Counted from the first letter of the stretch, positions 1-26,757 are shown. The stretch: DNA of 34,629 nt from Deltaproteobacteria bacterium (GCA_016719515.1 JADJYZ010000037.1:1-34629); one strand, 5' to 3'. A program made the numbers and translations. The notes: generated from the sequence alone by a model not told the origin.

Positions 1-67
1 GAGGCGTTGTTCTCGACCGAGAGGGTGCCTTCCACCGAGGAGAGGGCGTCGAGGCCCGAGAGGCTCG

Positions 68-1237
68 TCAGCGCGCCGTTGTCGCGGACATAGATCTCCC
101 CGCCACAGAGGAGAGGGCGTCGAGGCCGGAGAGGCTCGTGAGCGAGCGTTGTTGTCCGCAAAGGCCCCCTTCGACTGTGGAGAGTCCCTCGAGGCCGGAC
201 AGGCTTGTCAGCGCGCCGTTGCCATAGATGTAGAGGTCCCCGGTGACGGAGGAGAGGCCCCCAAGGCCCGAGAGGCTCGTCAGCGCGGGGTTGCTGTAGA
301 CATCGATGGCCACCTCTACGAAGGAGAGCCCGTCGAGGCCCGCCAAGCTCGTCAGCGCGAGGTTGCCCTCGACGAAGACGCCCCAGCTCACCGAGGTGAG
401 GCCCTCAATGCCCGAGAGGCTCGTGAGCGAGGGGTTGTCGAAGACCGCGAGGCTCCCCCCCAACGAGGAGAGGCGCCCAAGCCCCTCGAAGCTCTCCAGC
501 GTCTCATTGCCCGTGATCTCAACGTCCTCGACCACATAGGTGAGGCCATCCAGCCCAGAGAGGCTCGTCAACAATGGATTAGAATCAATGAAGACTCTCC
601 CGTCTACAGTGGTGAGGCCCTCCAGGCCCGAGAGGCTCGTCAGCTTCTGATTGCGGGAGATGTAGACGTCGCCTCCAACGGTGGTGAGTCCCTCAAGCCC
701 ATCGAGGCTCGTCAGCACGTCGTTGAAGAGGATGTAGAGGTCTCCGCCCACTGTGGAGAGGTTCTCAAGGCCGACGAGGTTCGTCAGGTAGGGGCTGACG
801 GGGAGGTTGAGCTTCCCGCCGACGGCGGTGAGACAGCCCAAGGTGGCGACCTCCTCTTGCGTGGCGAGCGAGAGGGCGAGCTGGCCGCTGACGCTCCGCG
901 TACAATACCCCGGGCAGAAGTCCGCAAAATCCCCCATCAGATCTCCCTCAAGCTCATCATGGGGCAGCCACCCCAGCGGGTCTGTGTCGTCACAGTCGTC
1001 TGCGAGCCCGAACCCGTCGCCGTCCCCGTCGTCGTCCAGCGTGCTGGGATCGCAGTCGTTGTCTACGCCGTCGAAGGGCAGCTCTTCGCCGCCTACGGCC
1101 GGGTCGGCGTCGTCGCAGTCCTCCGCCGCGACGAGGCCGTCACCGTCCGCGTCTTGGGGATCGGTCTGGGGGTCGTCCCCCCTCGATGGGTCGGCGCATG
1201 CGGAGAGGAGGAGGGCGAAGGTGAAGGAGAGACGCAT
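68..1237 (-). CDS. LRR-like repeat lipoprotein with MopE-like Asp/Cys metal-binding motif. The 3' end appears frameshifted and the repeat array continues to window position 1 in another frame.
   Basis: The N-terminus MRLSFTFALLLSAC fits a signal peptide plus lipobox. DCDD/DNDCD motifs follow. After those come roughly 22-aa repeats (LTSLSGLEGLTTVGGDVYISRN...). The 5' leader is homologous to that of the next gene. In another frame, positions 1..101 still encode perfect repeat units (GEIYVRDNGALTSLSGLDALSSVEGTLSVENNA). Confidence 0.7.
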   Translation of the reverse strand: MRLSFTFALLLSACADPSRGDDPQTDPQDADGDGLVAAEDCDDADPAVGGEELPFDGVDNDCDPSTLDDDGDGDGFGLADDCDDTDPLGWLPHDELEGDLMGDFADFCPGYCTRSVSGQLALSLATQEEVATLGCLTAVGGKLNLPVSPYLTNLVGLENLSTVGGDLYILFNDVLTSLDGLEGLTTVGGDVYISRNQKLTSLSGLEGLTTVDGRVFIDSNPLLTSLSGLDGLTYVVEDVEITGNETLESFEGLGRLSSLGGSLAVFDNPSLTSLSGIEGLTSVSWGVFVEGNLALTSLAGLDGLSFVEVAIDVYSNPALTSLSGLGGLSSVTGDLYIYGNGALTSLSGLEGLSTVEGGLCGQQRSLTSLSGLDALSSVAGRSMSATTAR

Positions 1238-1366
1238 CGTGGCTCCGACATGATCCGCTCGGCGGGATCAGGAGGTTCATCCTCCCTGAGTCGCCGATCG
1301 GCGCATCCGATCATACAAAATTGTGACTCAAGCGCCAAGCGCCAAGCTCCAGGCGCAGGGGAGGCT

Positions 1367-3928
1367 TTAGCTCGGGCAGGTGCCGAGGTTGTTGTTGTTG
1401 GTCAGCGTGCCGCCAAAGGAGCTGAGCTGGGCGACGAGGGCGTCTACGTCGTCTTCACAGAGGTCGTCATTGTATCGGATCGTGAGGTCTCCGCCCACCG
1501 TGGTGAGGCCGTCGAGGCCCGAGAGGCTCGTCAGCGCGTCGTCGTTCTGAAGGGTGAGGGCCCCGCCCACCGAGGACAGCCCGCTGAGGCCCCAGAGGTC
1601 GGTCAGCGCGGGGTTGTTGAGGATGTACAGGTCTTCGCTCACGGAGCTGACGCCTTCGAGGCCCGAGAGGCTCGTCAGCGCGGGGTGATCTGTGATGTAC
1701 AGGAGCCCGCTCACGGCGGAGAGGCCGCCAAGCGCGGAGAGGCTGGTGAGCGAGGCGTTCGTCTCAAGGTACACGTGCCCGCCTACGGAGGTGAGGCCTT
1801 CGAGGCCCGAGAGGCTCGTCAGCGCGGGGTTCTCGTAGACCGCGAGGTCCCCGCCGAGGGCCGTGAGGCCGTCGAGGCCCATGAAGCTCAGCAGCGCGTC
1901 GTTGCCCACGACGGAGAGGTCGTCGCCAACAAAGCTGAGGCCCTCAAGGCCGGTGAGGCTCGTCAGCCCGTCGCTGCCGTTGATGGTGATCGTCCCGCCC
2001 ACAGAGGACAGGCCATCGAGGCCCGAGAGGTTCGTCAGGCCGTCGTTGTTGTACAGGCTGAGGTCACCCCCGACGGTCAGGACACCTTCTAGGCCCGTGA
2101 GGCTCGTCAGCGCCCCGCTGCTGGTGATGTCGAGCGTCCCGCCCACGCTGGTGAGGCCCGAGAGCGCCGAGAGGCTCGTCAGCGCGGGGTGTGTGCTGAT
2201 GGTGAGATCCCCGCCCACGCCGGTGAGGCCCTCCAGGCCGGTGAGGCTCGTTAAACGAGGGTGGGCGCCGATAATCAGCCGTCCACCGACCGAGGTGAGG
2301 CCCGAGAGGCCCGAGATGCTTGACAGGTTGCTGTTGGAGGTGATCAACAGGCCTCCCGCCAACGAGGTGAGGCCCTCAAGGCCGGTGAGACGCTCCAATG
2401 CGTAGTTTCCGAAGATGTGAGTCTCCCCACCGATGAAGGTCAGGCCCGAGAGCCCCGAGAGGTCTGAGAGCTGATAATTGTAGTCAATGGTGACGTCTCC
2501 ACCCACGGAGGAGAGGTTCTCAAGGCCCGAGAGGGTGGTTATCGTCCTGTTGCTGTACACGATGAGATCCCCGTCGATGGCGGTGAGACAGGTCAAGGCG
2601 GCGACGTCGGTGGTCTTGGCGGCGGAGAGGTCCAGATCTCCGCCGATGCGCCGCTCACAGTACCCCGTGCAGAAGAAGGAGGTGAAGCTGGCGCCCAGAT
2701 CGCCAGAGTACGTGTCAAGGGCCAGCCACCCGAGCGGGTTGGTGTCGTCGCAGTCGTCCGCCACGGCGAAGCCGTCGCCGTCGAGGTCATCGTCGGCGGT
2801 GCTCGGATCACAGTCGTTGTCGACGCCGTCATAGGTGATCTCGACCGCGTCGGGGCTCACCGCCGAGTCGCCGTCGTCGCAATCGTCCGCCGCGACGAGG
2901 CCGTCGCCGTCGAGGTCGTCGTCGGGGGTGCTCGAATCACAGTCGTTGTCGACGCCGTCGTAGGGTAGCTCTGCGCCGCCCACGGTTGAGTCGCCGTCGT
3001 CGCAGTCCGCCGCCGCGACGAGGCCGTCGCCGTCGAGGTCGTCGTCGGGGGTGCTCGAATCACAGTCGTTGTCGACGCCGTCGTAGGGTAGCTCGGCGCC
3101 GCCTACGGTGGAGTCGCCGTCGTCGCAGTCCGCCGCCGCGACGAGGCCGTCGCCGTCGAGGTCGTCGTCGGGGGTGCTCGGATCACAGTCGTTGTCGACG
3201 CCGTCGTAGGGTAGCTCGGCGCCACCTACGGTTGAGTCGCCGTCGTCGCAGTCGTCCGCCGCGACGAGGCCGTCGCCGTCGAGGTCGTCGTCGGGGGTGC
3301 TCGGATCACAGTCGTTGTCGACGCCGTCGTAGGGCAGCTCTGCGCCGCCTACGGCTGAGTCGCCGTCGTCGCAGTCGTCCGCCGCGACGAGGCCGTCGCC
3401 GTCGAGGTCATCGTCGGGGGTGCTCGGATCACAGTCGTTGTCGACGCCGTCGTAGGGTAGCTCGGCGCCGCCTACGGTTGAGTCGCCGTCGTCGCAGTCG
3501 TCCGCCGCGGCGAGGCCGTCGCCGTCGAGGTCGTCATCAGGGGTGCTCGGATCACAGTCGTTGTCGACGCCGTCGTAGGGCAGCTCGGCGCCGCCCACGG
3601 TGGAGTCGCCGTCGTCACAGTCGTCCGCCGCGACGAGGCCGTCGCCGTCGAGGTCGTCGTCGGGGGTGCTCGGATCACAGTCGTTGTCGACGCCGTCGTA
3701 GGGCAGCTCTTCGCCGCCCACGGCGGGGTCGCCGTCGTCGCAGTCGTCCGCCGCGACGAGGCCGTCGCCGTCGCCGTCCTGGGGCTCGGTGTCATCCTGC
3801 TTGTCCTCCGCGGGCTCTTTGTCGCCGCAGGCGGAGAGGAGGCTGAGGGCGAGCGCGGCGGCGAGGAGCGGGCGCATCGGGGCTCCAACGGTGATCCCGT
3901 CGATGGGACCGTGCGTGTACGACACCAT
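1367..3928 (-). CDS. Large surface lipoprotein with eight tandem 41-aa MopE-like putative metal-binding repeats, a Cys-containing cap, about 20 LRR-like 22-aa repeats and a Cys-flanked C-terminal tail.
   Basis: Signal peptide and lipobox (LSLLSACGDKEP). Repeats of the form DGDGLVAADDCDDGDSTVGGAELPYDGVDNDCDPSTPDDDL. A cap with FFCTGYCERR. LRR-like units (LTSLSGLEGLTSVGG-L-I--N). Tail of the form CEDDVDALVAQLSSFGGTLTNNNNLGTCPS. GC3-rich codon usage. Confidence 0.85.
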   Translation of the reverse strand: MVSYTHGPIDGITVGAPMRPLLAAALALSLLSACGDKEPAEDKQDDTEPQDGDGDGLVAADDCDDGDPAVGGEELPYDGVDNDCDPSTPDDDLDGDGLVAADDCDDGDSTVGGAELPYDGVDNDCDPSTPDDDLDGDGLAAADDCDDGDSTVGGAELPYDGVDNDCDPSTPDDDLDGDGLVAADDCDDGDSAVGGAELPYDGVDNDCDPSTPDDDLDGDGLVAADDCDDGDSTVGGAELPYDGVDNDCDPSTPDDDLDGDGLVAAADCDDGDSTVGGAELPYDGVDNDCDSSTPDDDLDGDGLVAAADCDDGDSTVGGAELPYDGVDNDCDSSTPDDDLDGDGLVAADDCDDGDSAVSPDAVEITYDGVDNDCDPSTADDDLDGDGFAVADDCDDTNPLGWLALDTYSGDLGASFTSFFCTGYCERRIGGDLDLSAAKTTDVAALTCLTAIDGDLIVYSNRTITTLSGLENLSSVGGDVTIDYNYQLSDLSGLSGLTFIGGETHIFGNYALERLTGLEGLTSLAGGLLITSNSNLSSISGLSGLTSVGGRLIIGAHPRLTSLTGLEGLTGVGGDLTISTHPALTSLSALSGLTSVGGTLDITSSGALTSLTGLEGVLTVGGDLSLYNNDGLTNLSGLDGLSSVGGTITINGSDGLTSLTGLEGLSFVGDDLSVVGNDALLSFMGLDGLTALGGDLAVYENPALTSLSGLEGLTSVGGHVYLETNASLTSLSALGGLSAVSGLLYITDHPALTSLSGLEGVSSVSEDLYILNNPALTDLWGLSGLSSVGGALTLQNDDALTSLSGLDGLTTVGGDLTIRYNDDLCEDDVDALVAQLSSFGGTLTNNNNLGTCPS
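2790..3780. repeat. Tandem 123-bp (41-codon) near-identical direct repeats, about 8.4 copies, inside the lipoprotein gene.
   Basis: Near-identical nucleotide blocks recur with 123-bp period. An example block is gagtcgccgtcgtcgcagtcgtccgccgcgacgaggccgtcgccgtcgaggtcgtcgtcgggggtgctcggatcacagtcgttgtcgacgccgtcgtagggtagctcggcgccgcctacggtt. Confidence 0.8.
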
Positions 3929-3969
3929 GGAGGCCGCAACAGGCGGGATGGATCACCCCCTCGTGAGGC

Positions 3970-4062
3970 TCAGGAGCTCGGGCAGGTGCCGGATTTTTTG
4001 CCGTTGACCACCGAGCCCGAGAAGGCGGTGAGCCGGGCGAGGAGCGCGTCCACCTCCTCGCC
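3970..4062 (-). pseudogene. Relic 3' end of a third LRR-lipoprotein paralog. It encodes ...EEVDALLARLTAFSGSVVNGKKSGTCPSS followed by a stop.
   Basis: Translation of the minus strand gives a tail homologous to the C-terminus of the 1367..3928 product (EDDVDALVAQLSSFGGTLTNNNNLGTCPS). The upstream residues in the same frame (APPSLRRHPRG, reaching into the poly-G tract) are not repeat-like, and no upstream gene body is attached. Confidence 0.5.
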
Positions 4063-4094
4063 GCGAGGGTGGCGTCGTAGAGAGGGTGGTGCTT

Positions 4095-4112
4095 GGGGGG
4101 GGGGGGGGGGGG
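4095..4112. repeat. Homopolymeric G tract of 18 nt in the upstream region of the lipoprotein gene.
   Basis: The run of G is read directly from the sequence. Confidence 0.9.
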
Positions 4113-4151
4113 CCATCCAGCCCATCGGTCAGCGAAGCCCGTGTTGTTCGA

Positions 4152-4168
4152 GGGGGGGGGGGCCCCCC
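4152..4168. repeat. G11-C6 homopolymer pair.
   Basis: The sequence aggggggggggggcccccctc is read directly. It is 40 nt downstream of the G18 tract. Confidence 0.9.
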
Positions 4169-4271
4169 TCTGCGCGGCGTTGTCAACGCCATGGAGACGC
4201 GGGGCGTGGCGCCTCAACGCCGACCTCCCGTCTCAGCGGGCCGGGGCGCGGGGCCCGCTAAGCCGGAGCCA

Positions 4272-5804
4272 CTACGCAGGCACCCCCGCCGCCACCGTCA
4301 ACGCCGGCCGCGGCGACTCCTCCCCGCGCGCCGCCCGCGCCACGGAGTGCGGCGCGAACTCCGCGAACGCCCGCTTGTAGTCGGCAAACGCGCCCCCCGC
4401 GCGCACGGCGTGCATCACCGCGAGGCCGGTCTGGGCGTCGCCCTGGGCCAACACCGCCTCCACCCAGGCCCAGCGGGCGGAGGTGGCGCGCAGCTCGACG
4501 CGGCCGCGGCTGGGCTTAAACGCCGTCTCCAGGCGCTTGAGGCGGGACTCCACCACCTTGAGGCCCACGAAGCCGTCATTGAGCATGGGCGTGTTGAGCT
4601 TGGGCACGAAGGGCGCCATGCCGATGGCGACGGGGTGGATCGCGCCGAGCTCCAAGGAGAAGCGCACGAGCTCGTCGAGATCGGCGTCGGTCTCGCCGGG
4701 CACGCCGATCATCATGTAGACCTTGAGCACCTTGTAGCGGTGCTCGGCGGCCTGGCGGGCGCAGTCGATGAGGTGCTGCTCGGTGGTGCCTTTGGACATC
4801 TCCCGGCGTAGGCGCTGGCTCGCGGCGTCTGAGGCCACGGTGAGGGTGCTGTAGCCGCCTTGGCGCAGAAGCTCGGCGATGCGGGGCTTGCGGGCCACAC
4901 GGTCGGCGCGCAGGGAGCTGATGCCGACGCCCTTTCCGGCGGCGATCAGCGCCTCTAAGATGGGCACCAGCTCGGGGTGATCGGAGATCGCCGCGCCGAC
5001 GAGGCCCACCCGGGGGGCGTAGTCGGGGACGAGGGAGAGCACGCGGTCGGCGGTGACCAGGCGCATCCCGCCGTTCGTGCTGCGGCGCATCACGCAGAAG
5101 GTGCACTGGCGATGGCAGCCGCGCTCCCCCTCCAGCAGAAACATGCTGGAGAGCTCGGCGTCGGGGGCGATGATGCGGCTGCGGGCGGGGAGCTCGGCGT
5201 CGGAGGCCTTGGCGATGGTGGGCAGGCGGTCGCCGTCGCGGTCGGGCAGGTAACCGCCGGGCAGGGCGGCCACGGCGGCGCGCAGGGCGTCCAAGCCGCC
5301 GGAGATCGCGGCCTCGACGGCGGGCACCACCGTCTCCTCAGCCTCGCCCAAGAGCATGGCGTCGACAAACGGCGCGGCGGGGAGCGGGTTCGAGAAGGTG
5401 AGCGGGCCGCCGAGCAGCACCAGGGGGTCGTAGCCCGTGCGATCTTCGCGGCGGGCGGGGATGCCCGCGAGCTCGAAGGCCGTGAGCATCCCGGCGAGCT
5501 CAAGCTCGTAGGCCAAAGACACGCCGATGATGGGGAAGTCCCGCAGCGGGGTCTGCGTCTCGTAGGTGCACAGGGGCAGGCGGGAGCGGCGCCAGGCGTC
5601 TACGTCGTCGGGTAAAAACGCGCGCTCGACGGCGAACCCGGCGCGGGTGAGCAGCTCGTGAATCCACTGGAAGCCAAGGGACGACATGCCCGCGCGGTAC
5701 GGCGAGGGGTAGAGCAGGGCCACGCGCGCCTGACCGGGGGTGAAGCCCGGCCCACGCTCGCGGGCGAGGCGCTCGACGATCGGCTCGTTGTGCTTCCAGG
5801 GCAT
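4272..5804 (-). CDS. Radical SAM protein with an N-terminal B12-binding-like domain, of the TIGR03960-like uncharacterised rSAM family.
   Basis: CxxxCxxC motif (CHRQCTFC). The N-terminal RVALLYPSPYRAGMSSLGFQWIHELL matches the conserved start of this family. Confidence 0.85.
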   Translation of the reverse strand: MPWKHNEPIVERLARERGPGFTPGQARVALLYPSPYRAGMSSLGFQWIHELLTRAGFAVERAFLPDDVDAWRRSRLPLCTYETQTPLRDFPIIGVSLAYELELAGMLTAFELAGIPARREDRTGYDPLVLLGGPLTFSNPLPAAPFVDAMLLGEAEETVVPAVEAAISGGLDALRAAVAALPGGYLPDRDGDRLPTIAKASDAELPARSRIIAPDAELSSMFLLEGERGCHRQCTFCVMRRSTNGGMRLVTADRVLSLVPDYAPRVGLVGAAISDHPELVPILEALIAAGKGVGISSLRADRVARKPRIAELLRQGGYSTLTVASDAASQRLRREMSKGTTEQHLIDCARQAAEHRYKVLKVYMMIGVPGETDADLDELVRFSLELGAIHPVAIGMAPFVPKLNTPMLNDGFVGLKVVESRLKRLETAFKPSRGRVELRATSARWAWVEAVLAQGDAQTGLAVMHAVRAGGAFADYKRAFAEFAPHSVARAARGEESPRPALTVAAGVPA

Positions 5805-5881: not shown

Positions 5882-6616
5882 ATGCTGTCGTCCCTCGCCG
5901 TGCTGCTCCTGGGTCTAGCCCCCGCTGAGGCCGCGGAGTCCGTCTCCCTCCGTTACCTGCTCGCCGTCGATGGTGAGGTCATCGGGCACCGCGATCTCAA
6001 GATCAACTACCTGCCCACGGACTCCGGCGAGCTGCGGCTCATGGAGTCGTTCACCGAGCTCACCTTCTCCATCGCCGGGCAGCCCTACACCTACAAGCAG
6101 CGCCTCGGCGGCCTGGGCGGCGGCAACTTCAGCTCGGCGATCAGCGACAACGGCACCGGCCGCGAGGTGCAGGCCGTGCGATCCAGCCTCGGCTGGACGG
6201 TCACCGTCGCTGAGGGCAAGACGGCGGAGGTCTACGCCTTGGGCCCCGCGGCCTTTGACCTCACCTCCCTCTCCTTGCTCGATCCCGCCGTGGCCGAGAG
6301 CCTCGCCGGGCGCAGCACGCTCAAGGTGCTCGTCGCCGAGACCGGCGGCGTGATGGAGGGCCCCCTTCGCCAGGCCGCCGACGTGCAGATCAAGCTCGGC
6401 GGCCAGATGATCACCTGCGACGAGTACGTCTGGAGCGTGCCCGAGGGTGAGGTCCGCCTGGACTACGGCCCTGAGGGCCACCTGATGCGCTACACCACCC
6501 GGGTCGCGGGCAAGGTCATCACCGCGACGCTGGACCGCCCTCCCCCGCCGCGCACCTACGGCACGACCATGGACGGGCCGCTGATTCAGTCGAGCGTCGG
6601 CGAAGAGACGCTCTAA
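5882..6616 (+). CDS. Secreted hypothetical protein.
   Basis: Signal peptide MLSSLAVLLLGLAPAEAAES. Non-artefactual composition. Divergent from the rSAM gene. Confidence 0.7.
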   Translation: MLSSLAVLLLGLAPAEAAESVSLRYLLAVDGEVIGHRDLKINYLPTDSGELRLMESFTELTFSIAGQPYTYKQRLGGLGGGNFSSAISDNGTGREVQAVRSSLGWTVTVAEGKTAEVYALGPAAFDLTSLSLLDPAVAESLAGRSTLKVLVAETGGVMEGPLRQAADVQIKLGGQMITCDEYVWSVPEGEVRLDYGPEGHLMRYTTRVAGKVITATLDRPPPPRTYGTTMDGPLIQSSVGEETL

Positions 6617-7581
6617 ACGCCGCTGATCGCCTCCTCAAGGGCCCGGCGCACCTCAACCCGCACCATCTTCTTGCGCCAGGGCGCGGGCCAGACATGCGTC
6701 GAGAGCGGGCTCACCTGCTTATACGCGGCCTCGGCCACGGCCTCGACGCCGCCCGCCTCCCAGGCCTCGGCCACGCCGCCCAGCTCCACCGGGCGCGGGC
6801 CCACGGACGAGACGACCACGCGGGGGCCCCGATCCGGGTCAAAGGCCGCCGCCGTGAGCAAGAGCGGGTAGTCGATGCTGCCCCGGGCGCGCAGCTTGCG
6901 GTGAACCACACGGCCCGCGGGCGGCGGGGGCAAGATCACGGCGGTGAGCAGCTCATCCGGGGCGCGGCGGATCCAGTCGCGGCCGTCGTCGCCATACAGC
7001 GCGGCGACGGCCACCCGCCGGGCGCCCCGCGTAGACACCAGCTCCACCTCGGCGTCATAGAGCAGGAGCCCCGGCGCGGTGTCGGCGGAGTGCGCGGCGT
7101 AACAGCCCTTGCCTTTGGGGGCGACGTGGCAGATCGCCCCCTCGGGCGCGCTGTGGCACTTCAAGCAGCCGCCGAGCGCCCCCCGCCAGAACGTCGACTG
7201 GTTGTACCAGGCGCAGCGGGTGTCGAGCATCAGGTTGCCGCCCAGGGTGCCCATGGCCTGAATCGTAGACGTGGCGATGGTGCGTGTGGCGGCGGCCAAG
7301 GCCGGGTACAGGCTCAACACCCGCACGTCCCGACCCACCGCCCGCAGCGTGACGCCGGCGCCGATGCGTAGGCCGCCCGCCTCGGTGACGGAGATCTCTT
7401 GCAGCGCCGACACCCCACCCAGACGGATGAGCGTCGGCGGGGTGAACAGACCGTACTTCATCGAGGGCAGAAGATCCGTGCCCCCAGCGATGAGCCGGGC
7501 CTGGGGGTGGTCGGTCAGCATCTGCGCGGCGTCGGAGACGGCGCGGGGCGAGAGCACAGAGAAGGTCGGCAGCGGCAGCAT
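6613..7581 (-). CDS. Xanthine dehydrogenase family FAD-binding subunit (CoxM/XdhB-like).
   Basis: The N-terminal LIAGGTDLLPSMK motif is typical of FAD-binding molybdopterin dehydrogenase subunits. It is last in an S-L-M operon. Confidence 0.9.
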   Translation of the reverse strand: MLPLPTFSVLSPRAVSDAAQMLTDHPQARLIAGGTDLLPSMKYGLFTPPTLIRLGGVSALQEISVTEAGGLRIGAGVTLRAVGRDVRVLSLYPALAAATRTIATSTIQAMGTLGGNLMLDTRCAWYNQSTFWRGALGGCLKCHSAPEGAICHVAPKGKGCYAAHSADTAPGLLLYDAEVELVSTRGARRVAVAALYGDDGRDWIRRAPDELLTAVILPPPPAGRVVHRKLRARGSIDYPLLLTAAAFDPDRGPRVVVSSVGPRPVELGGVAEAWEAGGVEAVAEAAYKQVSPLSTHVWPAPWRKKMVRVEVRRALEEAISGV

Positions 7582-7584
7582 AGC

Positions 7585-9903
7585 TCAGGCTCCGTCAAAG
7601 GAGGCGCGGCGGGCCTCACGGTCGCGGCGCTCGATGGCCTTGAGCACACGGTCGGGGGTGAACGGCGCCTCGTTCATCCAGACGCCGCAGGCGTCAAAGA
7701 TGGCGTTGGCGATGGCGGGCACCGTGGAGAGCTGGGGGCCCTCCCCGGCCTCTTTGGCGCCGAAGGGGCCCTCCTTGTCGTTGGACTCCACGATGATCGT
7801 GATGATCTCCGGCGTCTCAAACACCGTGGGGATCTTGTACTCCAAGATCGACGGCGCCCGGTGCAGACCGTGTTTGGTGTAGCTCTGCTCCTCAGCCAGG
7901 GCCTCCCCCACGCCCATGTACACGCAGCCCTCGATCTGGCCCTCCACGATGGTGGGGTTTAAGGCCTTGCCGCAGTCGTGCGCCGCCCAGATGCGCTCGA
8001 CGGTGACGAAGCCCGTCTCCGGGTCTACCACCACCTCGGCCACCTGGGCGGTGAACGAGTACGCCGGAGACGGCCCCACGGACTGGCGGCGAAAGCGGTT
8101 GCCGATCTTCGGGGGTTTGTAGTGCCCCACAAAGCCTAAGGTGCCGTGGCGCTCTTCAGCGAGCTGCACGGCCTCGGCAAAATCGAGGGCCTTCTCTGGC
8201 GCAGACTCGCGGAACACCTTCCCGCCGACCATCACCACGTCCTCGCCGCCGAGCTTCTCCGCCGCCGCCGCCCGCATCACCGCGTAGAGCTGATCCGCGG
8301 CCATCTTGGCGGCGTTGCCCGCGAAGAAGGTCACCCGGGAGGAGTACGAGCCCAGGTCTACCGGCGTGAGCCCGGTGTCGGCCTCCAACACCACACAGTC
8401 GGTCTCGGGGATGCCCAGGCGCCCGGCGACGATGGCCGCGAGCATGTGGTTAGAGCCCTGGCCGATGTCGGCGGTGCCCGAGAGGATCGACACCCGCCCC
8501 GAGCGGTCGGCGCAGATCTGCACGGCGCTCTGGGGCATCTCCGACTGCACGATCGGGTGCAGGGCCCCGCACATATACGCCGAGGTGGCCAGGCCGATGC
8601 CCCGGTTGGGGCCGAGCTTGCCGCGCTTCTCCAAGTACCCCGAGGCGGCGAGCACCTTGTCAACACACTCTTTGAGCGCGACGGACGTGATGCGCAGGCC
8701 GTTGGAGGTCTCTGTGTCGGGCTCCACGCAGTTCTTGAGGCGCAGGGCGTCGGGGCTCATGCCGATGGCGTTCGCGAGCTTGTCGAGGTGAAGCTCCAAG
8801 GCGAAGCGCGGCTGAATCGCGCCGTGGCCTCGTTTGGGGCCGCAGGGCGGGTGGTTTGTGTAGCAGCGGTGGCTCTCAAACTGCCAGTGATCGAGCTTGT
8901 ACGGCAGCGGCAAGAACACGCCGAAGTAGTACGCCGTCACCACGCCGTAGCTGGCGTAGGCCCCGCCCGCGGCCCAGGCCTTAAAGTCGGCGGCGGTGAT
9001 GCGCCCGTCGTTGGTGACGCCCATCTTCAGGGTCATCCGTGTGGGGTGACGGCCTCGGTGGGCGTAGAACACCTCCTCACGGTCGAGGATAAACTTCACC
9101 GGGCGGCCGGTCTTTCGCGCCAAGGCCGCCGCGCACAGCTCGTTGGCGAAGGGGTCGGACTTGCCGCCATAACCCGCGCCCACATCGGGCTTGATCACCC
9201 GCACGTCCTGCTCACGCATCCCCAGCACCTTGGACACGATGCGGTGCAGGTAATGGGGGATCTGTGTAGACGACCAGAGGGTGAGCTTGCCGTCTGGGTG
9301 GGGTTGGGCCAGGGCGACCTGGGTCTCCAGGGGCACATGGGTGGAGCCGGGGTAGTCGTAATTCGACTCGATGATCACATCGGCCTCGGCGAACCCGGCG
9401 GCGGGGTCACCGTATTTCTGGAACACCCGGCGTAAGACGTTTGTGTCGCCTTTGCGGCGGCGCTCGTCATGCAGGAGCGGCTTGTCGGGGTTCAGCGCGT
9501 CCTCGATGGTGAACACGCCCTCTAAGGGCTCGTACTCCACACGGATGAGCGCGGCGGCGCGGCGGGCCGTCTCTTGATCCACGGCGGCCACGGCGGCGAC
9601 CTCGTCCCCGATGAACAGCACCTTGCCCACGGCCAAGGCGTGCTCGTCCTGGGCCACGGGGATGACGCCATACGGCGTGGGGAGATCGGCCCCGGTGAGC
9701 ACGGCGTAGACCCCGGGCAGGGCCAAGGCCGCGCTCACGTCGATGCTCAAGATTCGGGCGTGGGCGTGGGGCGAGCGGTTGAAGGCCCCGTGCAGCATCC
9801 CGGGCAAGGTGAGGTCATCGGTGAAGCGGGCGGCGCCGGTGATCTTGGGCAAGCCGTCGATCTTGCCGCCGCGACGGCCAACAGGCGAATCAGGCTCGCT
9901 CAT
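7585..9903 (-). CDS. Xanthine dehydrogenase family molybdopterin-binding large subunit (CoxL/XdhA-like).
   Basis: 772 aa. Aldehyde oxidase / xanthine dehydrogenase a/b hammerhead and Mo-binding regions. Its ATGA overlaps the upstream 2Fe-2S gene. Confidence 0.9.
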   Translation of the reverse strand: MSEPDSPVGRRGGKIDGLPKITGAARFTDDLTLPGMLHGAFNRSPHAHARILSIDVSAALALPGVYAVLTGADLPTPYGVIPVAQDEHALAVGKVLFIGDEVAAVAAVDQETARRAAALIRVEYEPLEGVFTIEDALNPDKPLLHDERRRKGDTNVLRRVFQKYGDPAAGFAEADVIIESNYDYPGSTHVPLETQVALAQPHPDGKLTLWSSTQIPHYLHRIVSKVLGMREQDVRVIKPDVGAGYGGKSDPFANELCAAALARKTGRPVKFILDREEVFYAHRGRHPTRMTLKMGVTNDGRITAADFKAWAAGGAYASYGVVTAYYFGVFLPLPYKLDHWQFESHRCYTNHPPCGPKRGHGAIQPRFALELHLDKLANAIGMSPDALRLKNCVEPDTETSNGLRITSVALKECVDKVLAASGYLEKRGKLGPNRGIGLATSAYMCGALHPIVQSEMPQSAVQICADRSGRVSILSGTADIGQGSNHMLAAIVAGRLGIPETDCVVLEADTGLTPVDLGSYSSRVTFFAGNAAKMAADQLYAVMRAAAAEKLGGEDVVMVGGKVFRESAPEKALDFAEAVQLAEERHGTLGFVGHYKPPKIGNRFRRQSVGPSPAYSFTAQVAEVVVDPETGFVTVERIWAAHDCGKALNPTIVEGQIEGCVYMGVGEALAEEQSYTKHGLHRAPSILEYKIPTVFETPEIITIIVESNDKEGPFGAKEAGEGPQLSTVPAIANAIFDACGVWMNEAPFTPDRVLKAIERRDREARRASFDGA

Positions 9904-10415
9904 GTGGACCTCCCGTTCATCCGCTCGCGGGCCTGGCGGGCGGCGGCGAGGATCTTCGTGTAGCCCGTGCAGCGGCAGATGTTGGCGCCGAGCACCTCGT
10001 TGAGCTCGGCGTCGGTCGGGTCGGGCCGCTCGTCAAACAGGGCCTTGAGCGCCATGACGAAGCCCGGCGTGCAATACCCACACTGGGCGGCGACCTGCTC
10101 GTGGAACGCGGCCTGGATGGGGTGCAGCGCGCCGCCGACGGCCACACCCTCGACGGTGAGCAGCTCGGCGTCCTGAGCCTCGGCGGCCAGGGTGATGCAC
10201 GAGAGCCGCGGCGCGCCGTTCACCAAGACCGTACACGCGCCGCAGTCGCCGACGTCGCAGCCGTGCTTGGAGCCGGTGAGGCCGAGGTCTTGGCGCAGGA
10301 GGTTGAGGAGCGTGCGGTTCGCCGGGATCAACAGGCGTCTGCGGTCGCCGTTGACCCTCAGCGTGAGGACCAGATCGTCATCGGGCTCGGTGGGCATGGC
10401 CGCCACTATAACCAA
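9900..10415 (-). CDS. (2Fe-2S)-binding small subunit of the molybdenum hydroxylase (CoxS-like).
   Basis: Two Cys clusters, CDVGDCGACTV and CGYCTPGF...CRCTGY. TTG start according to the ORF track. Confidence 0.9.
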   Translation of the reverse strand: MVIVAAMPTEPDDDLVLTLRVNGDRRRLLIPANRTLLNLLRQDLGLTGSKHGCDVGDCGACTVLVNGAPRLSCITLAAEAQDAELLTVEGVAVGGALHPIQAAFHEQVAAQCGYCTPGFVMALKALFDERPDPTDAELNEVLGANICRCTGYTKILAAARQARERMNGRST

Positions 10416-10430
10416 TGGCTTCGGGGGCGG

Positions 10431-12653
10431 TCAGACGCGCTGGGCGCCTCGGGCGCGGCGCAGGCGATCGGACTCGCCTTCAGCGCGGCGGGCGGCGCGC
10501 ACCTCGTCCTCCAAGCGGCGCAGAGCCTCTCCGGCGGCGGAGACCCGGTCTTGCTCACCGATCAGCTCTTGGCGGGCTTTGCGGGCGGCGCCGCCGATGT
10601 CCAGGAGGCGCGCCGCCGTGGCCGTGAGCTTGGACTCCCAGCGGGCGTGCTCCTCTAAGGTGGCCTCGCGGTCGGCCTTGGCGGCGAGCAGCTCGGGGCG
10701 CTCGGTGGGGTCGGGGCGCTGACCGGCCTGCTCCATCGTCTCGACGCGGCGCATGCGGGCCTCGATCTGGGCGAGGTCTTGGGCGATGGCCTCGGGGCGC
10801 AGCTCTTTGAGGCGACCATCCAGGCGATCGGCCTCGGCGGCCAGGTCAGCGGCCTCGGCGCGCAGCTCGACGACGGTGCGGCGTAGGTCGGCCTCGGCGG
10901 GGGTGGGCAGCTCGGCCTGGCCGATCGCCAGCTCTAAGGCGGCGAGGGACTCCTCAACCCGGGCGAGGAGCTGGCCGCCGCGGGTCTTGGGCGGAGGCGG
11001 CGCGACCACCGGGGCGGCGACGTTCGGCGGCGCAGGGGCGGCGGCGGCAGGTTCAGCGGCGGCGGCGCCGCGCTCCACACGCACCTGGGGGCGGCTGGCG
11101 AGCAGCTCGGGCAGACGCTCGGGGGTGACGTGGGCGCGCAGGTCTCGGCCATAGGCCAAGGGCACCTTGTCGGCGTTGCGCCCGGCGTTGGAGGCGGTCA
11201 CCATCACGACGACGGAGATGAGGATCATCACCGGGAGCGCCGCCATGGCCGAGCCGAAGGTGAGCCCCACGGCGATGGCCCACAACACCCACATCGGCCC
11301 GAGCAGGTTGGGCAGGGTGCGCATCACGCGGTTCACCCGGCCATCTTCGTCCTCAGCGCGGCGGCGTTTTTTGGCGACGAAGCCCCGGCTCTCGGCCAAG
11401 GCGGCGAGGTTATCGACGGTGTCTTCGCTCACGCCAGAGACGAGGCGGAAGCGGCGCTGGTCGAGCACGGGGCTCACCAACAGGGCGTCGATGGGCAGCC
11501 CCGCCCGCAGCGCGACGCCGCGGGCGAGGAGCTCGGCGTCGGTGATCTCCGTGGACTCCGCCGTCCACTCTTCAGGGAGCTTGGGCAGGCCGAGCTGCAC
11601 CACCACCTTGTTGATCGCCTCGGCGGCGTAGCGGGCGCTCGTCTTGCCCGCCCGGGCGCTGCGCCGGGCGTGCCTGCGGCTGGCTTGGCTGGAGTGGCGC
11701 AGCTCCAGCTCAAAGCGGCCTTCAGGCAGGGCCAACGGCGCGGGCTCTAAGGTGTAGCTGGGCGGTGGAGGCGGCGGCGGGGGCTCGTCTTTGGGCGGCG
11801 CGCGGCGGTTTTGAGCCCGCGGCGGCGGGGCGACGATGCGCCCACGAAGGGCCTCGGCGACCTCAGCGGCGCCTTGGGGGCGCTCGTCTGGGGAGAGGCG
11901 CAAGAGCGCGTGGATGATGGCGCAGAGGTCGTCCGGCAGCTCAGGGCGCAGGCTGGCGAGGGGCTCGACCTCGCCGGAGAGCTGGCGTTTGAGCACGGCG
12001 GCGGCGTTTGGCCCGGCGAAGGGCGCCCGGCCTGAAGCGGCGTAGTACAGCACCGTGCCCAAGGAGTAGAGGTCGCTGCGGGGGTCGGCGCGCTCGCCGT
12101 CGTAGACCTCGGGGGCGGCGTGCCCGGCGGTGCCCAAGGCCCCGGTGTGCCGGGTGGACTGCCACTGCTCTAGCCGGGCGAGGCCAAAGTCGGTGAGCGT
12201 CGCCACGCCCGCGTCGTCGATCATCACGTTCGCCGGGGTGATGTCGCGGTGCAGCACGCCGGCGCGGTGGGCGGCGGCGAGCACGTCGGCCAGCCGCGCG
12301 CCGATGGCCCGCAGCGCCGTGCCGCCGATGGGGCCTTCAGCGGCCACCCGCTCGGAGAGGGTGCGGCCCGGGTGGTAGGGCATGGACAAGGCGAGGTGCC
12401 CGTCGAGCTCGTGCAGCTCTTGGGCCAAGAGCGCGCCCTCGTGTTTGATGAGCCCCGCCGTCATCACCTCGCGGCGCAGGCGCTCGCGGGTGGAGGCGTC
12501 GCCGACGAGGTGGGCGTGGAGGATCTTCAGCGCGACCCGGGCGCCGCGCACCCGATCTTCAGCGAGCCAGACCGTCGCCATGCCCCCACGGCCCAGCTCA
12601 CCGATGAGCGTGAACCGCTCACCGAGCACCGCGCCCCGGGCCAAGGCGCTCAA
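10431..12653 (-). CDS. Membrane-anchored Ser/Thr protein kinase. It has an N-terminal kinase domain, a Pro-rich linker, TM helices and a C-terminal coiled-coil.
   Basis: Kinase motifs GELGRGGMATVW, VALK, HRDITPANVMID and DFGLA. Hydrophobic segment NLLGPMWVLWAIAVGLTFGSAMAALPVMILISVVVMV. It ends 15 bp upstream of coxS. The start is TTG or GTG and uncertain. Confidence 0.85.
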   Translation of the reverse strand: MSALARGAVLGERFTLIGELGRGGMATVWLAEDRVRGARVALKILHAHLVGDASTRERLRREVMTAGLIKHEGALLAQELHELDGHLALSMPYHPGRTLSERVAAEGPIGGTALRAIGARLADVLAAAHRAGVLHRDITPANVMIDDAGVATLTDFGLARLEQWQSTRHTGALGTAGHAAPEVYDGERADPRSDLYSLGTVLYYAASGRAPFAGPNAAAVLKRQLSGEVEPLASLRPELPDDLCAIIHALLRLSPDERPQGAAEVAEALRGRIVAPPPRAQNRRAPPKDEPPPPPPPPSYTLEPAPLALPEGRFELELRHSSQASRRHARRSARAGKTSARYAAEAINKVVVQLGLPKLPEEWTAESTEITDAELLARGVALRAGLPIDALLVSPVLDQRRFRLVSGVSEDTVDNLAALAESRGFVAKKRRRAEDEDGRVNRVMRTLPNLLGPMWVLWAIAVGLTFGSAMAALPVMILISVVVMVTASNAGRNADKVPLAYGRDLRAHVTPERLPELLASRPQVRVERGAAAAEPAAAAPAPPNVAAPVVAPPPPKTRGGQLLARVEESLAALELAIGQAELPTPAEADLRRTVVELRAEAADLAAEADRLDGRLKELRPEAIAQDLAQIEARMRRVETMEQAGQRPDPTERPELLAAKADREATLEEHARWESKLTATAARLLDIGGAARKARQELIGEQDRVSAAGEALRRLEDEVRAARRAEGESDRLRRARGAQRV

Positions 12654-12729
12654 CCGCGCACCGGAGGCACCCGACCCGAGCTTGTCTGACGCGCCGCTTC
12701 AGTCACTGAGCACTTCCCTCCCCTGCTCC

Positions 12730-13561
12730 CTATTGTGGGGTGGCCGCCGCTGGCAAACCTTTCCCCAAACGGGCCATGGTGACCCACGCGGCGACGTCAT
12801 CGACCTCCCAAGAGTTGTCGGACCCACGCCAGAGCAGGCGGCCGTCACCGTCGAGCACCAGGATGTGCAGGCTGTGGAGGATGTCGCCTTGGCTCTCGAC
12901 CCGGCTGGCCCCGGCGCGTAACAACAGCGTCTTGAGCGCGTCGAGCTCTAAGCGGGCGAAGGTCCACGTGGGCGGGGTTCGCGCCGCGCTCGGCGCCGTA
13001 GGCCTTGAGCACCTCCAGAGAGTCCCGGGCGGGGTCCAGGGTGACGCTCACGATGCGCCCGTGGCCGAGCTGGCCTTGAAGCTCCTTGAGCTTGCTCGCC
13101 AACAAGGGGCAGGCCTCGGGCATGGGGCAAGACGTGAACAAGAAGGTGAGCACCGTCGGCACGCCTTGGCCCGCGCCGATGAGCACCGGGCCGTCCACGC
13201 CGGGCATCGTGAGCGCCGGGAGCTGCTCCCCTTCAGCCAGGGCGATCACCGCGTCGGGGGCCAGGGCCAGGGGCTCCTCGTGGCCGGTGACCTTGGCGCC
13301 GATGATCCGCACCGTGCCGTCTTCAGCGGTCATCAGGTTCGCCTGGATGAGATCCCCAGGGCGAAGCTGCCGGGCGAGGTTGGGATCGACGACGAAGGTG
13401 GTGGCGCCCTCCTCAAAGGCGCCGGGCACGGGGCCGTGCTCCAGCCGCACGCTGTGCTGGCCGACGTCGCGCACCACGCCGTTGACGGAGTAGGTGTCTC
13501 CAGCGACAAAGTTACAGCCGGCCAAGGCGAAGACGGCGATGAGCCCGCGCATCAGAGGCAC
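12730..13561 (-). CDS. SCO1/SenC family copper chaperone lipoprotein. An apparent frameshift near 12964-12980 interrupts it.
   Basis: Lipobox LAGC. Thioredoxin-like CxxxC (FTSCPMPEACP). The conserved C-terminus WTFARLELD...HSLHILVLDGDGRLLWRG lies in the adjacent frame (ORF 12730..12924). Confidence 0.75.
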
Positions 13562-13636
13562 CTCCTGAGGTTGGCAAGCCTATTCACGCGGGCGCGCCGC
13601 GTCGACGGGGCGTCGTGTCGCGGGTAAACTCCTCAG

Positions 13637-13858
13637 ATGCCCGAGTCTCCCGAGATCCCCGCCTCTTTGCCACGACGCGCCCTGCGGCGGGCGGGCAGAG
13701 CCGCGCTCAAGGCTCTGGGCGGCGCGGTGTATTACGCGATCTACCGCGAGCTGCCGAACCCCAACGATCCCGACCCCTACTGGCGTGAGATGCACCCCGA
13801 CCAAGACAAAGGCACGGGGCGCCAAGGTGGGGACTTTGAGCCCCCGCCGGGGATCTGA
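13637..13858 (+). CDS. Small hypothetical protein of 73 aa.
   Basis: The ORF lies immediately upstream (10-nt gap) of the large membrane protein gene. Codon bias is mixed and there is no clear SD. Confidence 0.3.
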   Translation: MPESPEIPASLPRRALRRAGRAALKALGGAVYYAIYRELPNPNDPDPYWREMHPDQDKGTGRQGGDFEPPPGI

Positions 13859-13870
13859 GGTCACACGCTG

Positions 13871-16554: not shown

Positions 16555-16608
16555 GGCCACCGCGCCGAGGGTCATTTGCGCGGCGTCGGGTTCTCCCCGG
16601 CGTCGCGC

Positions 16609-26749: not shown

Positions 26750-26757
26750 GAGGGGTA

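What the first reader, a model, noticed from the sequence alone, without database searches (positions are those of the whole stretch)
68..3928. Tandem paralogous lipoproteins built from MopE-like Asp/Cys metal-binding repeats and 22-residue LRR-like repeats
Two adjacent same-strand genes share homologous 5' leaders (cgcatcg-ggctcc-ac-gtgatcc-ctcg-gggat), lipoprotein signal peptides and DCDD...DNDCDP motif repeats. Both carry long arrays of LTSLSGLEGLxxVGGxLxIxxN units and a Cys-flanked tail. The first gene has 1.5 metal-motif repeats; the second has 8.4. Together this reads as an expanding surface-protein family: putative Cu/Ca-binding repeats joined to a ligand-binding solenoid, with a non-canonical C-terminal ...GTCPS module. 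Its function and sorting are not described.
Basis: partly seen in the sequence, partly recalled or inferred. Interest (0 to 1): 0.6.

Follow-up and report, generated by a model that had tools for sequence, protein, structure and literature searches.

The report
Stalked solenoid lipoprotein gene pair
Two neighbouring genes of a wastewater myxobacterium-like organism encode membrane-anchored proteins with an acidic, probably calcium-binding stalk and a leucine-rich coil head, a common but unstudied design that varies sharply between close strains.

Summary
The features are real, with corrections. Gene A (1367-3877, minus strand) and gene B (1-1237, cut by the window edge and frame-broken near its 3' end) are paralogous predicted lipoproteins.

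Each has:
- a lipobox (LSAC);
- 41-residue Asp/Cys PF11617 "MopE" units (8.4 in A, 1.5 in B);
- a Cys-containing N-cap;
- a perfectly regular 24-residue solenoid, not 22-residue (16 rungs in A, at least 10 in B), matching Pfam Receptor L domain in the LRR fold class;
- a short Cys-Cys tail.

The "GTCPS module" is not a sorting signal. It is the solenoid's C-terminal cap (helix plus last strand, pLDDT above 90), homologous to caps in thousands of relatives.

Copper binding is unlikely. The units contain no His, Met or Trp, and they match only the crystallographically invisible N-terminus of MopE*. DxDxDG motifs point to calcium.

The architecture is widespread. In Bacteroidota it is mirrored, with the MopE array again lying next to the anchor.

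The locus is highly plastic. A strain 97% identical has 9.4 MopE units and 9 rungs, and relics of further paralogs remain.

Best reading: an anchored stalk presents a variable binding head. This is a new member of a known, uncharacterised kind.

The parts
1367..3877 (-). Gene A, 836 aa from M18 (the ORF is open up to the ATG at 3928). Predicted lipoprotein with a MopE array, N-cap, 16-rung solenoid and C-cap.
   Evidence: ORF. GC3 is 0.88. Pfam PF11617 at 104.5 bits and PF01030 at 59.5 bits. The start was chosen from the leader alignment, GGAGCCCCGATG.
3827..3877 (-). Gene A signal peptide with lipobox: MRPLLAAALALSLLSA|C.
   Evidence: Read directly from the sequence. It has R at position 2, a hydrophobic core, and L-S-A-C. 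The same start is seen in L001 and L006.
2741..3778 (-). Gene A array of 8 full units plus one half unit of 41 aa: DLDGDGLVAADDCDDGDSTVGGAELPYDGVDNDCDPSTPDD.
   Evidence: TRF period 123, 8.3 copies, 93% match. Units 1-7 differ at 3-11 of 123 nt; unit 8 differs at about 44. PF11617 matches in 8 stretches. The AF2 model of 3 units has pLDDT 86.7 and almost no regular secondary structure.
2597..2740 (-). Gene A N-terminal cap of the solenoid: NPLGWL...FFCTGYCERRIGGDLDLS...LTC.
   Evidence: 54% identical to B's cap. Conserved in P0017, P0270-P0273 and L004. Aligns to the Cys-rich-to-L2 boundary of IGF1R, E = 0.002.
1445..2596 (-). Gene A solenoid: 16 in-register 24-aa rungs of the form L-x-G-L-t-s-V-G-G-x-L-x-I-x-x-N-x-x-L-T-S-L-s-G.
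1367..1462 (-). Gene A C-cap (DDLCEDDVDALVAQLSSFGGTLTNNNNLGTCPS) plus stop codon.
   Evidence: AF2 gives a helix (construct 488-497) and a final strand (505-508) at pLDDT 93-96. The same tail is the extreme C-terminus in P0017, P0270, P0347, L004 gene 1 and the L007 ORF. No NCBIfam model of any kind matched at a meaningful E-value.
1238..1366 (-). Intergenic leader of gene B. Contains a heptamer repeat (1329-1356), a sigma70-like site (1338-1310), two short hairpins or palindromes, and GGAGCCACG-ATG.
   Evidence: It is homologous to the leader of L004 gene 1.
1..1237 (-). Gene B. It has a lipobox (MRLSFTFALLLSA|C, 1196-1237), 1.5 MopE units (941-1153), an N-cap and at least 10 rungs. The frame is broken near 158-166, 141-148 and 96-104, and the gene runs off the window start.
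   Evidence: PF01030 at 45 bits. The N-terminus is nearly identical to metagenome protein P0275.
3878..3969 (-). Leader of gene A. Contains the GGTCCC-ATCGAC-GGGATC hairpin and a GGAG Shine-Dalgarno sequence.
   Evidence: Identical in L006 and conserved in two L001 junctions. No Rfam match.
3970..4059 (-). Relic of a third paralog's C-cap (..EEVDALLARLTAFSGSVVNGKKSGTCPSS*). There is no intact gene body upstream of it.
   Evidence: tblastn with A's tail gives 50% identity, E = 2e-7. Translation. L006 keeps a longer relic that includes a rung. Similar tail-leader junctions occur in L001.

Best explanation
Genes A and B encode exported, lipid-anchored envelope proteins built on the plan anchor - stalk - head.

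**Inferred steps**
- Sec export, then acylation at the lipobox Cys, then delivery to the outer membrane. The +2 residue is Gly or Ala.
- Each 41-aa MopE unit forms one disulfide. It holds Ca2+ through its invariant acidic residues (DxDxDG, DDC-DD, E, D-N-D-C-D, DD). This makes a non-helical, non-sheet "wire" like thrombospondin type-3 repeats.
- The array acts as an adjustable spacer of 1.5 to 9.4 units.

**Shown steps**
- The head is a straight, capped, 24-residue LRR / receptor-L-type beta-solenoid.
- Variability across the rungs of A and B is concentrated in the residues of one strand (x-L-x-I-x-x-N-x-x).

**Inferred function**
The variable face binds an external ligand, such as another cell's surface, prey or a polymer. 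The locus diversifies by recombination among tandem paralogs, which changes stalk length, rung number and rung sequence.

The GTCPS tail is the solenoid's disulfide-stapled C-cap. It is not a sorting tag.
For: **Domain identity**
- Pfam PF11617 and PF01030 score above their cut-offs.
- The AF2 solenoid has pLDDT about 98, with the tail folding as a helix plus a last strand.
- LRR and L-domain structures are the best fold matches.
- The N-cap aligns with the start of IGF1R L2.

**Stalk**
- In an alignment of 40 three-unit fragments (the window's own three units plus 39 fragments from homologs), the acidic residues and the two Cys are invariant.
- The AF2 model has pLDDT 86.7 with almost no regular secondary structure.
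- The only Foldseek hits, all weak and non-significant, are Ca-binding proteins, chiefly TSP3 repeats in OmpA (5wtl) and thrombospondin (2rhp, 1ux6).
- PF11617 arrays are fused to many unrelated heads.
- In at least 15 lipobox-type proteins the array lies between the lipobox and the solenoid. In 4 T9SS-type proteins it lies between the solenoid and the C-terminal anchor domain. It is therefore always next to the anchor.

**Variable head and plasticity**
- Per-position entropy of the rungs.
- L006 is 96.8% identical in the flanks but has 9.4 units and 9 rungs, with different distal rungs and a different downstream paralog.
- L004's A-like gene has 1.5 units.
- P0270 has only 3 rungs.
- Relics of tail-leader junctions remain.

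**Cap Cys pair**
- Both Cys are present together, or both are absent together (L008, L009, P0328-type tails).
Against: - There is no experimental datum for any close relative.
- Lipoprotein processing, outer-membrane versus surface location, disulfides and Ca2+ binding are all inferred.
- AF2 does not model ions, and I could not read the model coordinates. The Cys-Cys distances are therefore unchecked.
- The TSP3 similarity is not significant (best E = 0.03, prob 0.12), and Pfam TSP_3 did not match.
- The conserved "LTSLSGLEGL" half of the rung may be kept uniform by gene conversion rather than by function. The entropy contrast is thus only suggestive of a binding face.
- Gene B may be a pseudogene, and the L006 copy of A carries frame breaks. 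Part of the apparent plasticity could be long-read assembly error.
Confidence: 0.6

Rival explanations
1. Copper (or other transition-metal) capture, as the Pfam name "Cu-binding_MopE" suggests. On this view the arrays sequester or deliver Cu at the cell surface.
For: - PF11617 matches.
- MopE* lacking its first 24 residues no longer binds a Cu(II) IMAC column (PMC3423442). The motif aligns to residues 6-43 of MopE*.
Against: - The high-affinity Cu(I) site of MopE* (two His plus kynurenine) lies elsewhere. Residues 1-46 are not seen in the crystal (PMC3423442).
- The window's units contain no His, Met or Trp. Their only Cys pair is spaced like a structural disulfide.
- The same array is attached to lectin, collagen-C, FG-GAP, beta-helix and other heads. 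This fits a generic spacer better than a metal-uptake function.
- No copper-handling genes lie nearby.
Confidence: 0.07
2. An envelope-architecture or vesicle-modulating lipoprotein rather than an adhesin. The solenoid would act on the cell's own outer membrane or periplasm. The comparison is with BtuL of Bacteroides thetaiotaomicron, a lipobox protein with a receptor-L-domain-superfamily repeat region that promotes vesicle release.
For: - The plan of lipobox plus L-domain-type repeats is the same as described for BtuL (PMC13616437).
- Nothing here shows surface exposure.
Against: - Strain-level hypervariability of rung number and sequence, and tandem paralogs with relics, are more typical of proteins facing outward.
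- Bacteroidota homologs are T9SS cargo and so are extracellular.
- Homology to BtuL itself was not tested, because no sequence was available to me.
Confidence: 0.2
3. A decaying locus in which one or both genes are non-functional remnants of a once larger array.
For: - Three frame breaks near the 3' end of B.
- A relic tail upstream of A.
- A truncated A-like gene in L004/L005.
- Frame breaks in the L006 copy of A.
Against: - Gene A is a clean 836-aa ORF with GC3 of 0.88, intact caps and perfect register.
- All of B's breaks sit at G runs. The window also carries G18 and G11 tracts where L006 has mixed sequence, which suggests homopolymer errors of a long-read assembly.
- B's N-terminus is conserved in an independent metagenome (P0275).
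Confidence: 0.1

Closest known systems
Receptor L domain (Pfam PF01030; L1/L2 of EGFR, insulin receptor and IGF1R), within the LRR fold class
   Same: - The HMM match is above the cut-off.
- It is a capped right-handed beta-solenoid.
- The N-cap aligns to the start of IGF1R L2.
- The rung motif has the same flavour: 'L..L..I.G.L.I..N..L'.
   Different: - It is far longer, with 16 uniform 24-aa rungs against about 5-6 irregular ones.
- It is bacterial and lipid-anchored.
- It has no furin-like Cys-rich domain or kinase.
Bacteroidota T9SS cargo proteins with PF01030/PF23952 solenoids, annotated 'T9SS type A sorting domain-containing protein' or 'leucine-rich repeat protein'
   Same: - They have the same rung motif, N-cap and Cys C-cap, at 32-45% identity.
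- Some also carry PF11617 arrays.
- They also occur as tandem arrays (L011).
   Different: - They are anchored and secreted through a C-terminal T9SS domain instead of an N-terminal lipobox.
- The module order is mirrored.
- Their cap has four Cys, against two here.
MopE / 'MopE-related proteins' (PF11617)
   Same: - They share the 30-40-aa D/C motif.
- NCBI names array proteins 'MopE-related'.
- The motif aligns to MopE* residues 6-43.
   Different: - MopE has a single motif ahead of a beta-sandwich Cu(I) domain.
- Here there are 8.4 tandem units, no Cu-site residues and no MopE core domain.
Thrombospondin type-3 Ca2+-binding repeats (thrombospondin; OmpA of Capnocytophaga, PDB 5wtl; TraB of Myxococcus)
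   Same: - They have a DxDxDG...D-(N/D)-C motif logic and one disulfide per repeat.
- They lack regular secondary structure.
- They serve as linkers. The literature basis is Dai et al. 2017, cited in PMC12045341.
- They are the only Foldseek hits of the MopE model.
   Different: - The hits are not significant.
- Pfam TSP_3 does not match.
- The unit length (41 aa) and the second half (E..PYDGVDNDCD) differ.
TraA of Myxococcus xanthus (polymorphic kin-recognition receptor)
   Same: It has the same functional plan as described in PMC12045341: a variable recognition head, a Cys-rich repeat 'presentation stalk', and a lipid anchor on the cell surface.
   Different: - The domains are unrelated (a PA14-like head and beta-hairpin Cys repeats).
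- It is anchored by MYXO-CTERM at the C-terminus.
- There is no sequence similarity. This is an analogy only.
BtuL of Bacteroides thetaiotaomicron
   Same: It is described as having an N-terminal lipobox followed by a repetitive receptor-L-domain-superfamily region. It is a lipoprotein selectively enriched on extracellular vesicles (PMC13616437).
   Different: - No MopE array is reported.
- It is encoded in a B12 operon.
- Homology was not tested here.

Membership tests
Pfam PF01030 Recep_L_domain (LRR fold class) | Whole-protein HMM score above the gathering threshold (21.8 bits) | tested here: met
   A scores 59.5 bits and B scores 45.0 bits.
Pfam PF01030 Recep_L_domain (LRR fold class) | Right-handed beta-solenoid with one short strand per rung, superposable on solved L domains or LRRs | tested here: met
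Canonical 22-residue LRR (internalin type) | Period of 22 residues with LxxLxLxxN | tested here: not met
   The period is 72 nt, or 24 aa, with no indels over 16 rungs. Pfam LRR_4 scores only 12.5 bits, below its cut-off.
Pfam PF11617 Cu-binding_MopE motif | HMM score above the gathering threshold (27 bits) | tested here: met
   A scores 104.5 bits in 8 stretches. B alone scores 13.5 bits, below the cut-off, but its unit is 80% identical to A's.
MopE/CorA copper proteins | Cu(I) site of two His plus Trp-derived kynurenine in a beta-sandwich core | tested here: not met
   There is no His or Trp in the units. The only similarity is to MopE* residues 6-43, which are absent from the crystal structure (PMC3423442).
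Bacterial lipoproteins (signal peptidase II substrates) | N-terminal basic residue, hydrophobic core, and lipobox [LVI][ASTVI][GAS]C within about 35 residues | tested here: met
   By inspection. A (from M18) reads MRPLLAAALALSLLSAC, with Cys at position 17. B reads MRLSFTFALLLSAC, with Cys at position 14, which is short. No dedicated predictor was available.
Bacterial lipoproteins (signal peptidase II substrates) | Actual acylation and cleavage by Lgt/LspA, and localisation | not testable with these tools
   This needs globomycin sensitivity, palmitate labelling or mass spectrometry.
T9SS cargo | C-terminal Por_Secre_tail domain (PF18962 / TIGR04183) | tested here: not met
   It is absent from A and B but present in most Bacteroidota homologs.
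MYXO-CTERM / PEP-CTERM type C-terminal sorting tags | Cys- or PEP-containing motif followed by a transmembrane helix and a basic cluster | tested here: not met
   The protein ends 2 residues after the last Cys, with no hydrophobic segment. The NCBIfam scan at E <= 1 returned only a spurious LpxA hit. The AF2 model places the tail inside the solenoid fold.
Thrombospondin type-3 repeats | Pfam TSP_3 match, or significant fold match to TSP3 structures | tested here: inconclusive
   There is no Pfam TSP_3 hit at E <= 1. Foldseek's best hits are 5wtl, 2rhp and 1ux6, but at E = 0.03-9.5. The DxDxDG motif is present in every unit.

The most novel reading that the evidence does not exclude
The locus could be a recombination-driven polymorphic surface-receptor system. 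On this reading, tandem paralogs and silent tail-leader relics serve as a cassette reservoir. Shuffling them would reset rung number and sequence, and so specificity. Slippage in the 123-nt array would reset stalk length, and so reach. The organism would gain strain-specific recognition of kin, prey or phage, in the manner of TraA but built from entirely different modules.
Probability: 0.2. Interest if true: 0.6.

Novelty: new member of a known kind. Interest (0 to 1): 0.3.

Why it matters
- Both modules are very common in environmental Myxococcota-like bacteria and Bacteroidota, with tens of thousands of cluster representatives. No member with this architecture has been studied.
- The PF11617 motif has no solved structure and carries a misleading "Cu-binding" name.
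- MopE arrays lie next to the anchor whichever end carries the anchor. That pattern, with the strain-level changes in unit and rung number, gives a concrete, testable model: a Ca2+-stiffened, length-adjustable stalk presenting a variable LRR-type head.
- The finding also corrects two likely annotation traps: "copper-binding" for the array, and "unknown C-terminal sorting module" for the tail.

Tried and rejected
- **Exact-protein look-ups** of gene A with three alternative starts found nothing. The window's own genome is apparently not indexed. The neighbouring radical-SAM protein did lead to related contigs.
- **Rfam** on 1-4400 at E <= 1 found nothing. I found no covariation supporting the leader hairpin. 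It is conserved as sequence (GATCC..GGATC), so I rejected a structured RNA element as unsupported.
- **The N-cap profile search** returned only proteins of 185 aa or less, mostly fragments. It could not serve as a family census.
- **The representative search** ranked giant multi-solenoid or multi-MopE proteins first. It gave abundance but not architecture.
- **Regex and phmmer for the tail** among the first 269 fetched proteins found only P0017. Later sets added P0270, P0347 and others.
- **Foldseek of the MopE model** gave no significant match.
- **Model coordinates** are not exposed to scripts, so I could not measure disulfide geometry or stalk length.
- **The terminator scan** found only plus-strand sites, which are irrelevant to these minus-strand genes.
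- **Interpretations rejected:** T9SS, MYXO-CTERM or PEP-CTERM sorting of the tail; copper binding; a 22-residue internalin-type LRR.

Full report
**What is in the sequence**

The region holds two minus-strand ORFs, 1367..3928 (853 aa) and 68..1237 (389 aa). Both have the high third-position GC of real genes in this 70% GC window, 0.88 and 0.83.

Tandem Repeats Finder reports a 123-nt unit in 8.3 copies at 93% match (2744-3773, score 1698). It also reports a 72-nt unit in both genes (1482-2251 and 33-437).

Translated, gene A reads in this order:
- a signal peptide;
- eight 41-aa units DLDGDGLVAADDCDDGDSTVGGAELPYDGVDNDCDPSTPDD plus a half unit;
- a Cys-containing cap (FFCTGYCERRIGGDLDLS...LTC);
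- sixteen 24-aa rungs with no indel at all;
- the tail LCEDDVDALVAQLSSFGGTLTNNNNLGTCPS.

Gene B has the same plan with 1.5 units and at least 10 rungs.

Gene B is not complete. Its frame is broken three times next to G runs (about 158-166, 141-148 and 96-104). The repeat reading continues in another frame off the window's left edge.

Gene A most likely starts at M18 (3877). There GGAGCC-CCG-ATGCG aligns with GGAGCC-ACG-ATGCG of gene B and with four related genes.

**Domain identity**

Pfam assigns the acidic units to PF11617 (A: 104.5 bits, 8 stretches). It assigns the solenoid to PF01030 Receptor L domain (A 59.5 bits, B 45 bits; cut-off 21.8), with a marginal PF23952 LRR_EndoS match. NCBIfam gives nothing meaningful, and in particular no sorting-domain model.

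An AlphaFold2 model of A 338-853 was built with 61 further aligned sequences (60 database homologs plus gene B). Its mean pLDDT is 90.5, and about 98 across the solenoid, with one short strand per rung.

- Foldseek's best PDB matches are LRR proteins: internalin A, Roco and SHOC2. TM-scores are low, which I take to reflect a difference in overall shape, although I could not inspect the model.
- By sequence, the best PDB match is the Cys-rich-to-L2 boundary of IGF1R, E = 0.002. It aligns FCTGYCERR...LTCLTAIDGDLIV with PCEGPCPKV...LQGCTILKGNLLI.

The solenoid is therefore a periodic LRR-class, L-domain-type fold.

**The tail**

In the model the tail is part of the fold. There is a helix (EDDVDALVAQ) and a final strand (TLTN) at pLDDT 93-96.

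Bacteroidota homologs have a recognisably related cap directly after their last rung and before the T9SS domain. An example is N..L..C....IC.YL.......I..N..GC.

In lipoprotein-type relatives the same tail is the extreme C-terminus:
- P0017: ...LCDAEVDTLIAQLGAWAGALTRYNNNGSCP
- P0270: ...LCEEEVDDLEVQLTSFSGTVTNTGNTGTCPTE
- P0347: ...LCSTEVDALVVQLTTFTGSLTNSSNIGDCP
- L004 gene 1 and the 470-aa ORF of L007

More distant members keep the helix-strand cap but lack both Cys together (L008, L009, P0328-type). That pattern is what a disulfide pair would show.

No transmembrane segment or basic cluster follows the tail. I conclude that the "GTCPS module" is the solenoid's C-cap, not a sorting signal.

**The acidic units**

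The only PDB sequence match is MopE* residues 6-43 (E = 0.005). According to Ve et al. 2012 (PMC3423442), the first 46 residues of MopE* are invisible in the crystal. The high-affinity Cu(I) site, two His plus kynurenine, lies elsewhere. Only a Cu(II)-IMAC experiment implicates the first 24 residues.

The window's units have no His, Met or Trp.

I aligned 40 three-unit fragments: the window's own three units and 39 fragments taken from homologs. The invariant or near-invariant positions are D1, D3, D5, G6 (a DxDxDG motif), D12, C13, D15, E24, Y27, D31, D33, C34, T38, D40 and D41.

AF2 models three units at pLDDT 86.7 with almost no regular secondary structure. Foldseek finds nothing significant. 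Its only hits are Ca2+-binding proteins, chiefly TSP3 repeats: OmpA of Capnocytophaga (5wtl, E = 0.03) and thrombospondin (2rhp, 1ux6). The literature describes these as disulfide-dependent calcium-binding linkers (Dai et al. 2017, cited in PMC12045341).

Calcium binding is thus the better-supported inference, but it is only an inference.

**How common it is**

- A full scan of 1.84 billion cluster representatives with the whole protein gave 22,587 hits at E <= 1e-3 and 3,454 at E <= 1e-30. These hits match either module.
- The solenoid alone retrieves more than 3,000 proteins. Most are Bacteroidota proteins annotated "T9SS type A sorting domain-containing".
- With the full-length query, PF11617 arrays appear fused to many heads, including collagen-C/fibrinogen, FG-GAP, beta-helix, C-lectin, lamin-tail and PKD. 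About 18 of the top 120 hits carry both PF11617 and PF01030. NCBI's name for array proteins is "MopE-related protein".

Module order is informative. In at least 15 lipobox-type proteins the array lies between the lipobox and the solenoid. In the four T9SS-type proteins, and in a Saprospiraceae locus, it lies between the solenoid and the C-terminal anchor domain. The array is always next to the anchor, as expected of a stalk.

**Locus dynamics**

The adjacent radical-SAM protein (4272-5804) is found identically in metagenome contigs.

In L001, synteny at 98% identity stops at window position 4254. About 3.4 kb encoding a PIN toxin-antitoxin pair, a pentapeptide protein and other genes then follow. 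After that come two "tail relic - leader" junctions flanking an S9-peptidase-like gene, and finally the start of a gene-A ortholog.

The window itself keeps a relic tail (..EEVDALLARLTAFSGSVVNGKKSGTCPSS*) at 3970-4059.

L006 comes from JADKFE010000010.1, a Deltaproteobacteria MAG. Its isolate label "Rand_18" suggests to me Randers activated sludge. It is 96.8% identical to the window over 5.9 kb, yet it differs in several ways:
- 9.4 MopE units instead of 8.4;
- 9 rungs instead of 16;
- different distal rungs;
- a different downstream paralog.

A wastewater contig (L004) shows another array, in which the A-like gene has 1.5 units and is truncated. P0270 is a 179-aa mini-member with three rungs, sitting in another same-strand array of PF11617 genes.

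Units 1-7 of gene A differ at only 3-11 of 123 nt, which indicates recent expansion.

Across 25 rungs, entropy is high at positions 10, 12, 14, 15, 17 and 18 (x-L-x-I-x-x-N-x-x). It is low elsewhere.

**Leaders**

The leaders of A and B share roughly 45 nt. This stretch includes a GATCC-N6-8-GGATC palindrome 7-10 nt upstream of GGAG. Six related leaders fall into two types that both keep this element.

I found no compensatory changes and no Rfam match. It could be an mRNA 5' hairpin or a protein-binding site, and I leave it open. One sigma70-like site (1338-1310) precedes gene B, against 0.2 expected in shuffles.

**Interpretation**

The best-supported model is an exported lipoprotein. Its acylated N-terminus anchors a Ca2+/disulfide-stiffened stalk of adjustable length, and the stalk presents a capped LRR/L-type solenoid with one variable face. 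The locus diversifies through recombination among tandem paralogs.

The closest functional analogy is TraA of Myxococcus, which has a variable head, a Cys-rich presentation stalk and a lipid anchor (PMC12045341). The domains are unrelated.

The closest experimentally touched bacterial protein with a lipobox plus L-domain-type repeats is BtuL of B. thetaiotaomicron. It promotes vesicle release by an unknown mechanism (PMC13616437). This keeps a non-adhesin envelope role alive as a rival.

Copper capture and pure pseudogene decay are less likely, for the reasons above.

**Verdict**

The family and fold class are correct. The tail and the copper suggestion are wrong. The architecture is widespread.
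- This is a new member of a known but uncharacterised kind. Interest is modest. The strain-level plasticity and the anchor-proximal rule for MopE arrays are the most useful take-aways.

Noticed in passing
window 4095-4112 and 4152-4162: There are G18 and G11 homopolymers (C runs on the gene strand) inside the relic of the third paralog. The 97%-identical L006 has mixed C-rich sequence at the same places (CCCTCCGCCCCATCGCCC). The tracts are either homopolymer artefacts of a long-read assembly or unusual mutations. They are the only runs of 8 or more in the whole window.
   Followed up: partly
window 4254 versus L001 2766-6200: Synteny with a strain 98% identical in this stretch breaks just after the radical-SAM stop codon. 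That strain carries about 3.4 kb with an 86-aa/PIN toxin-antitoxin pair, a 186-aa protein and a pentapeptide-repeat protein. An S9-peptidase-like gene follows, sitting between two tail-leader junctions.
   Followed up: partly
window 1329-1356: A heptamer CAAGCGC repeated four times (GCGCTTG on the gene strand) lies in the A-B intergenic region. It overlaps the -35 hexamer of the only sigma70-like site (1338-1310). Copy-number change could affect gene B expression.
   Followed up: no
window 3890-3915, 1255-1275; L001, L004, L006 leaders: A GATCC-N6-8-GGATC palindrome or hairpin sits 7-10 nt upstream of the Shine-Dalgarno sequence. It is conserved in six lipoprotein-gene leaders of two leader types. 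There is no covariation and no Rfam hit.
   Followed up: partly
L006 4714-7230: The gene-A ortholog in the public MAG JADKFE01 is split by several frame breaks within the MopE array. It also lacks the stop codon after GTCP. This looks like long-read consensus error in a near-perfect repeat, so public copy numbers should be treated with caution.
   Followed up: no
L011 1666-12417 (Saprospiraceae MAG CAZDTI010000029.1): Three consecutive same-strand genes of 1056, 1303 and 1063 aa encode T9SS-type solenoid proteins of the same family. A neighbouring one carries MopE-like units after the solenoid. Tandem arrays are therefore not special to the Myxococcota-like lineage.
   Followed up: partly
window 10431-21702: The context is rich in signalling and cell-fate genes typical of Myxococcota: two Ser/Thr kinases (one fused to an FGE-sulfatase domain), an FHA protein and a caspase-domain protein. 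A xanthine-dehydrogenase-type three-gene set lies at 6613-10430. tRNA-Glu and tRNA-Lys lie at 26672-26831.
   Followed up: no
output: The profile search with a 106-aa query returned only proteins of 185 aa or less. It did not return P0017, which is in the query alignment. The tool appears to limit hit length relative to the query, which biases family censuses made with short queries.
   Followed up: no
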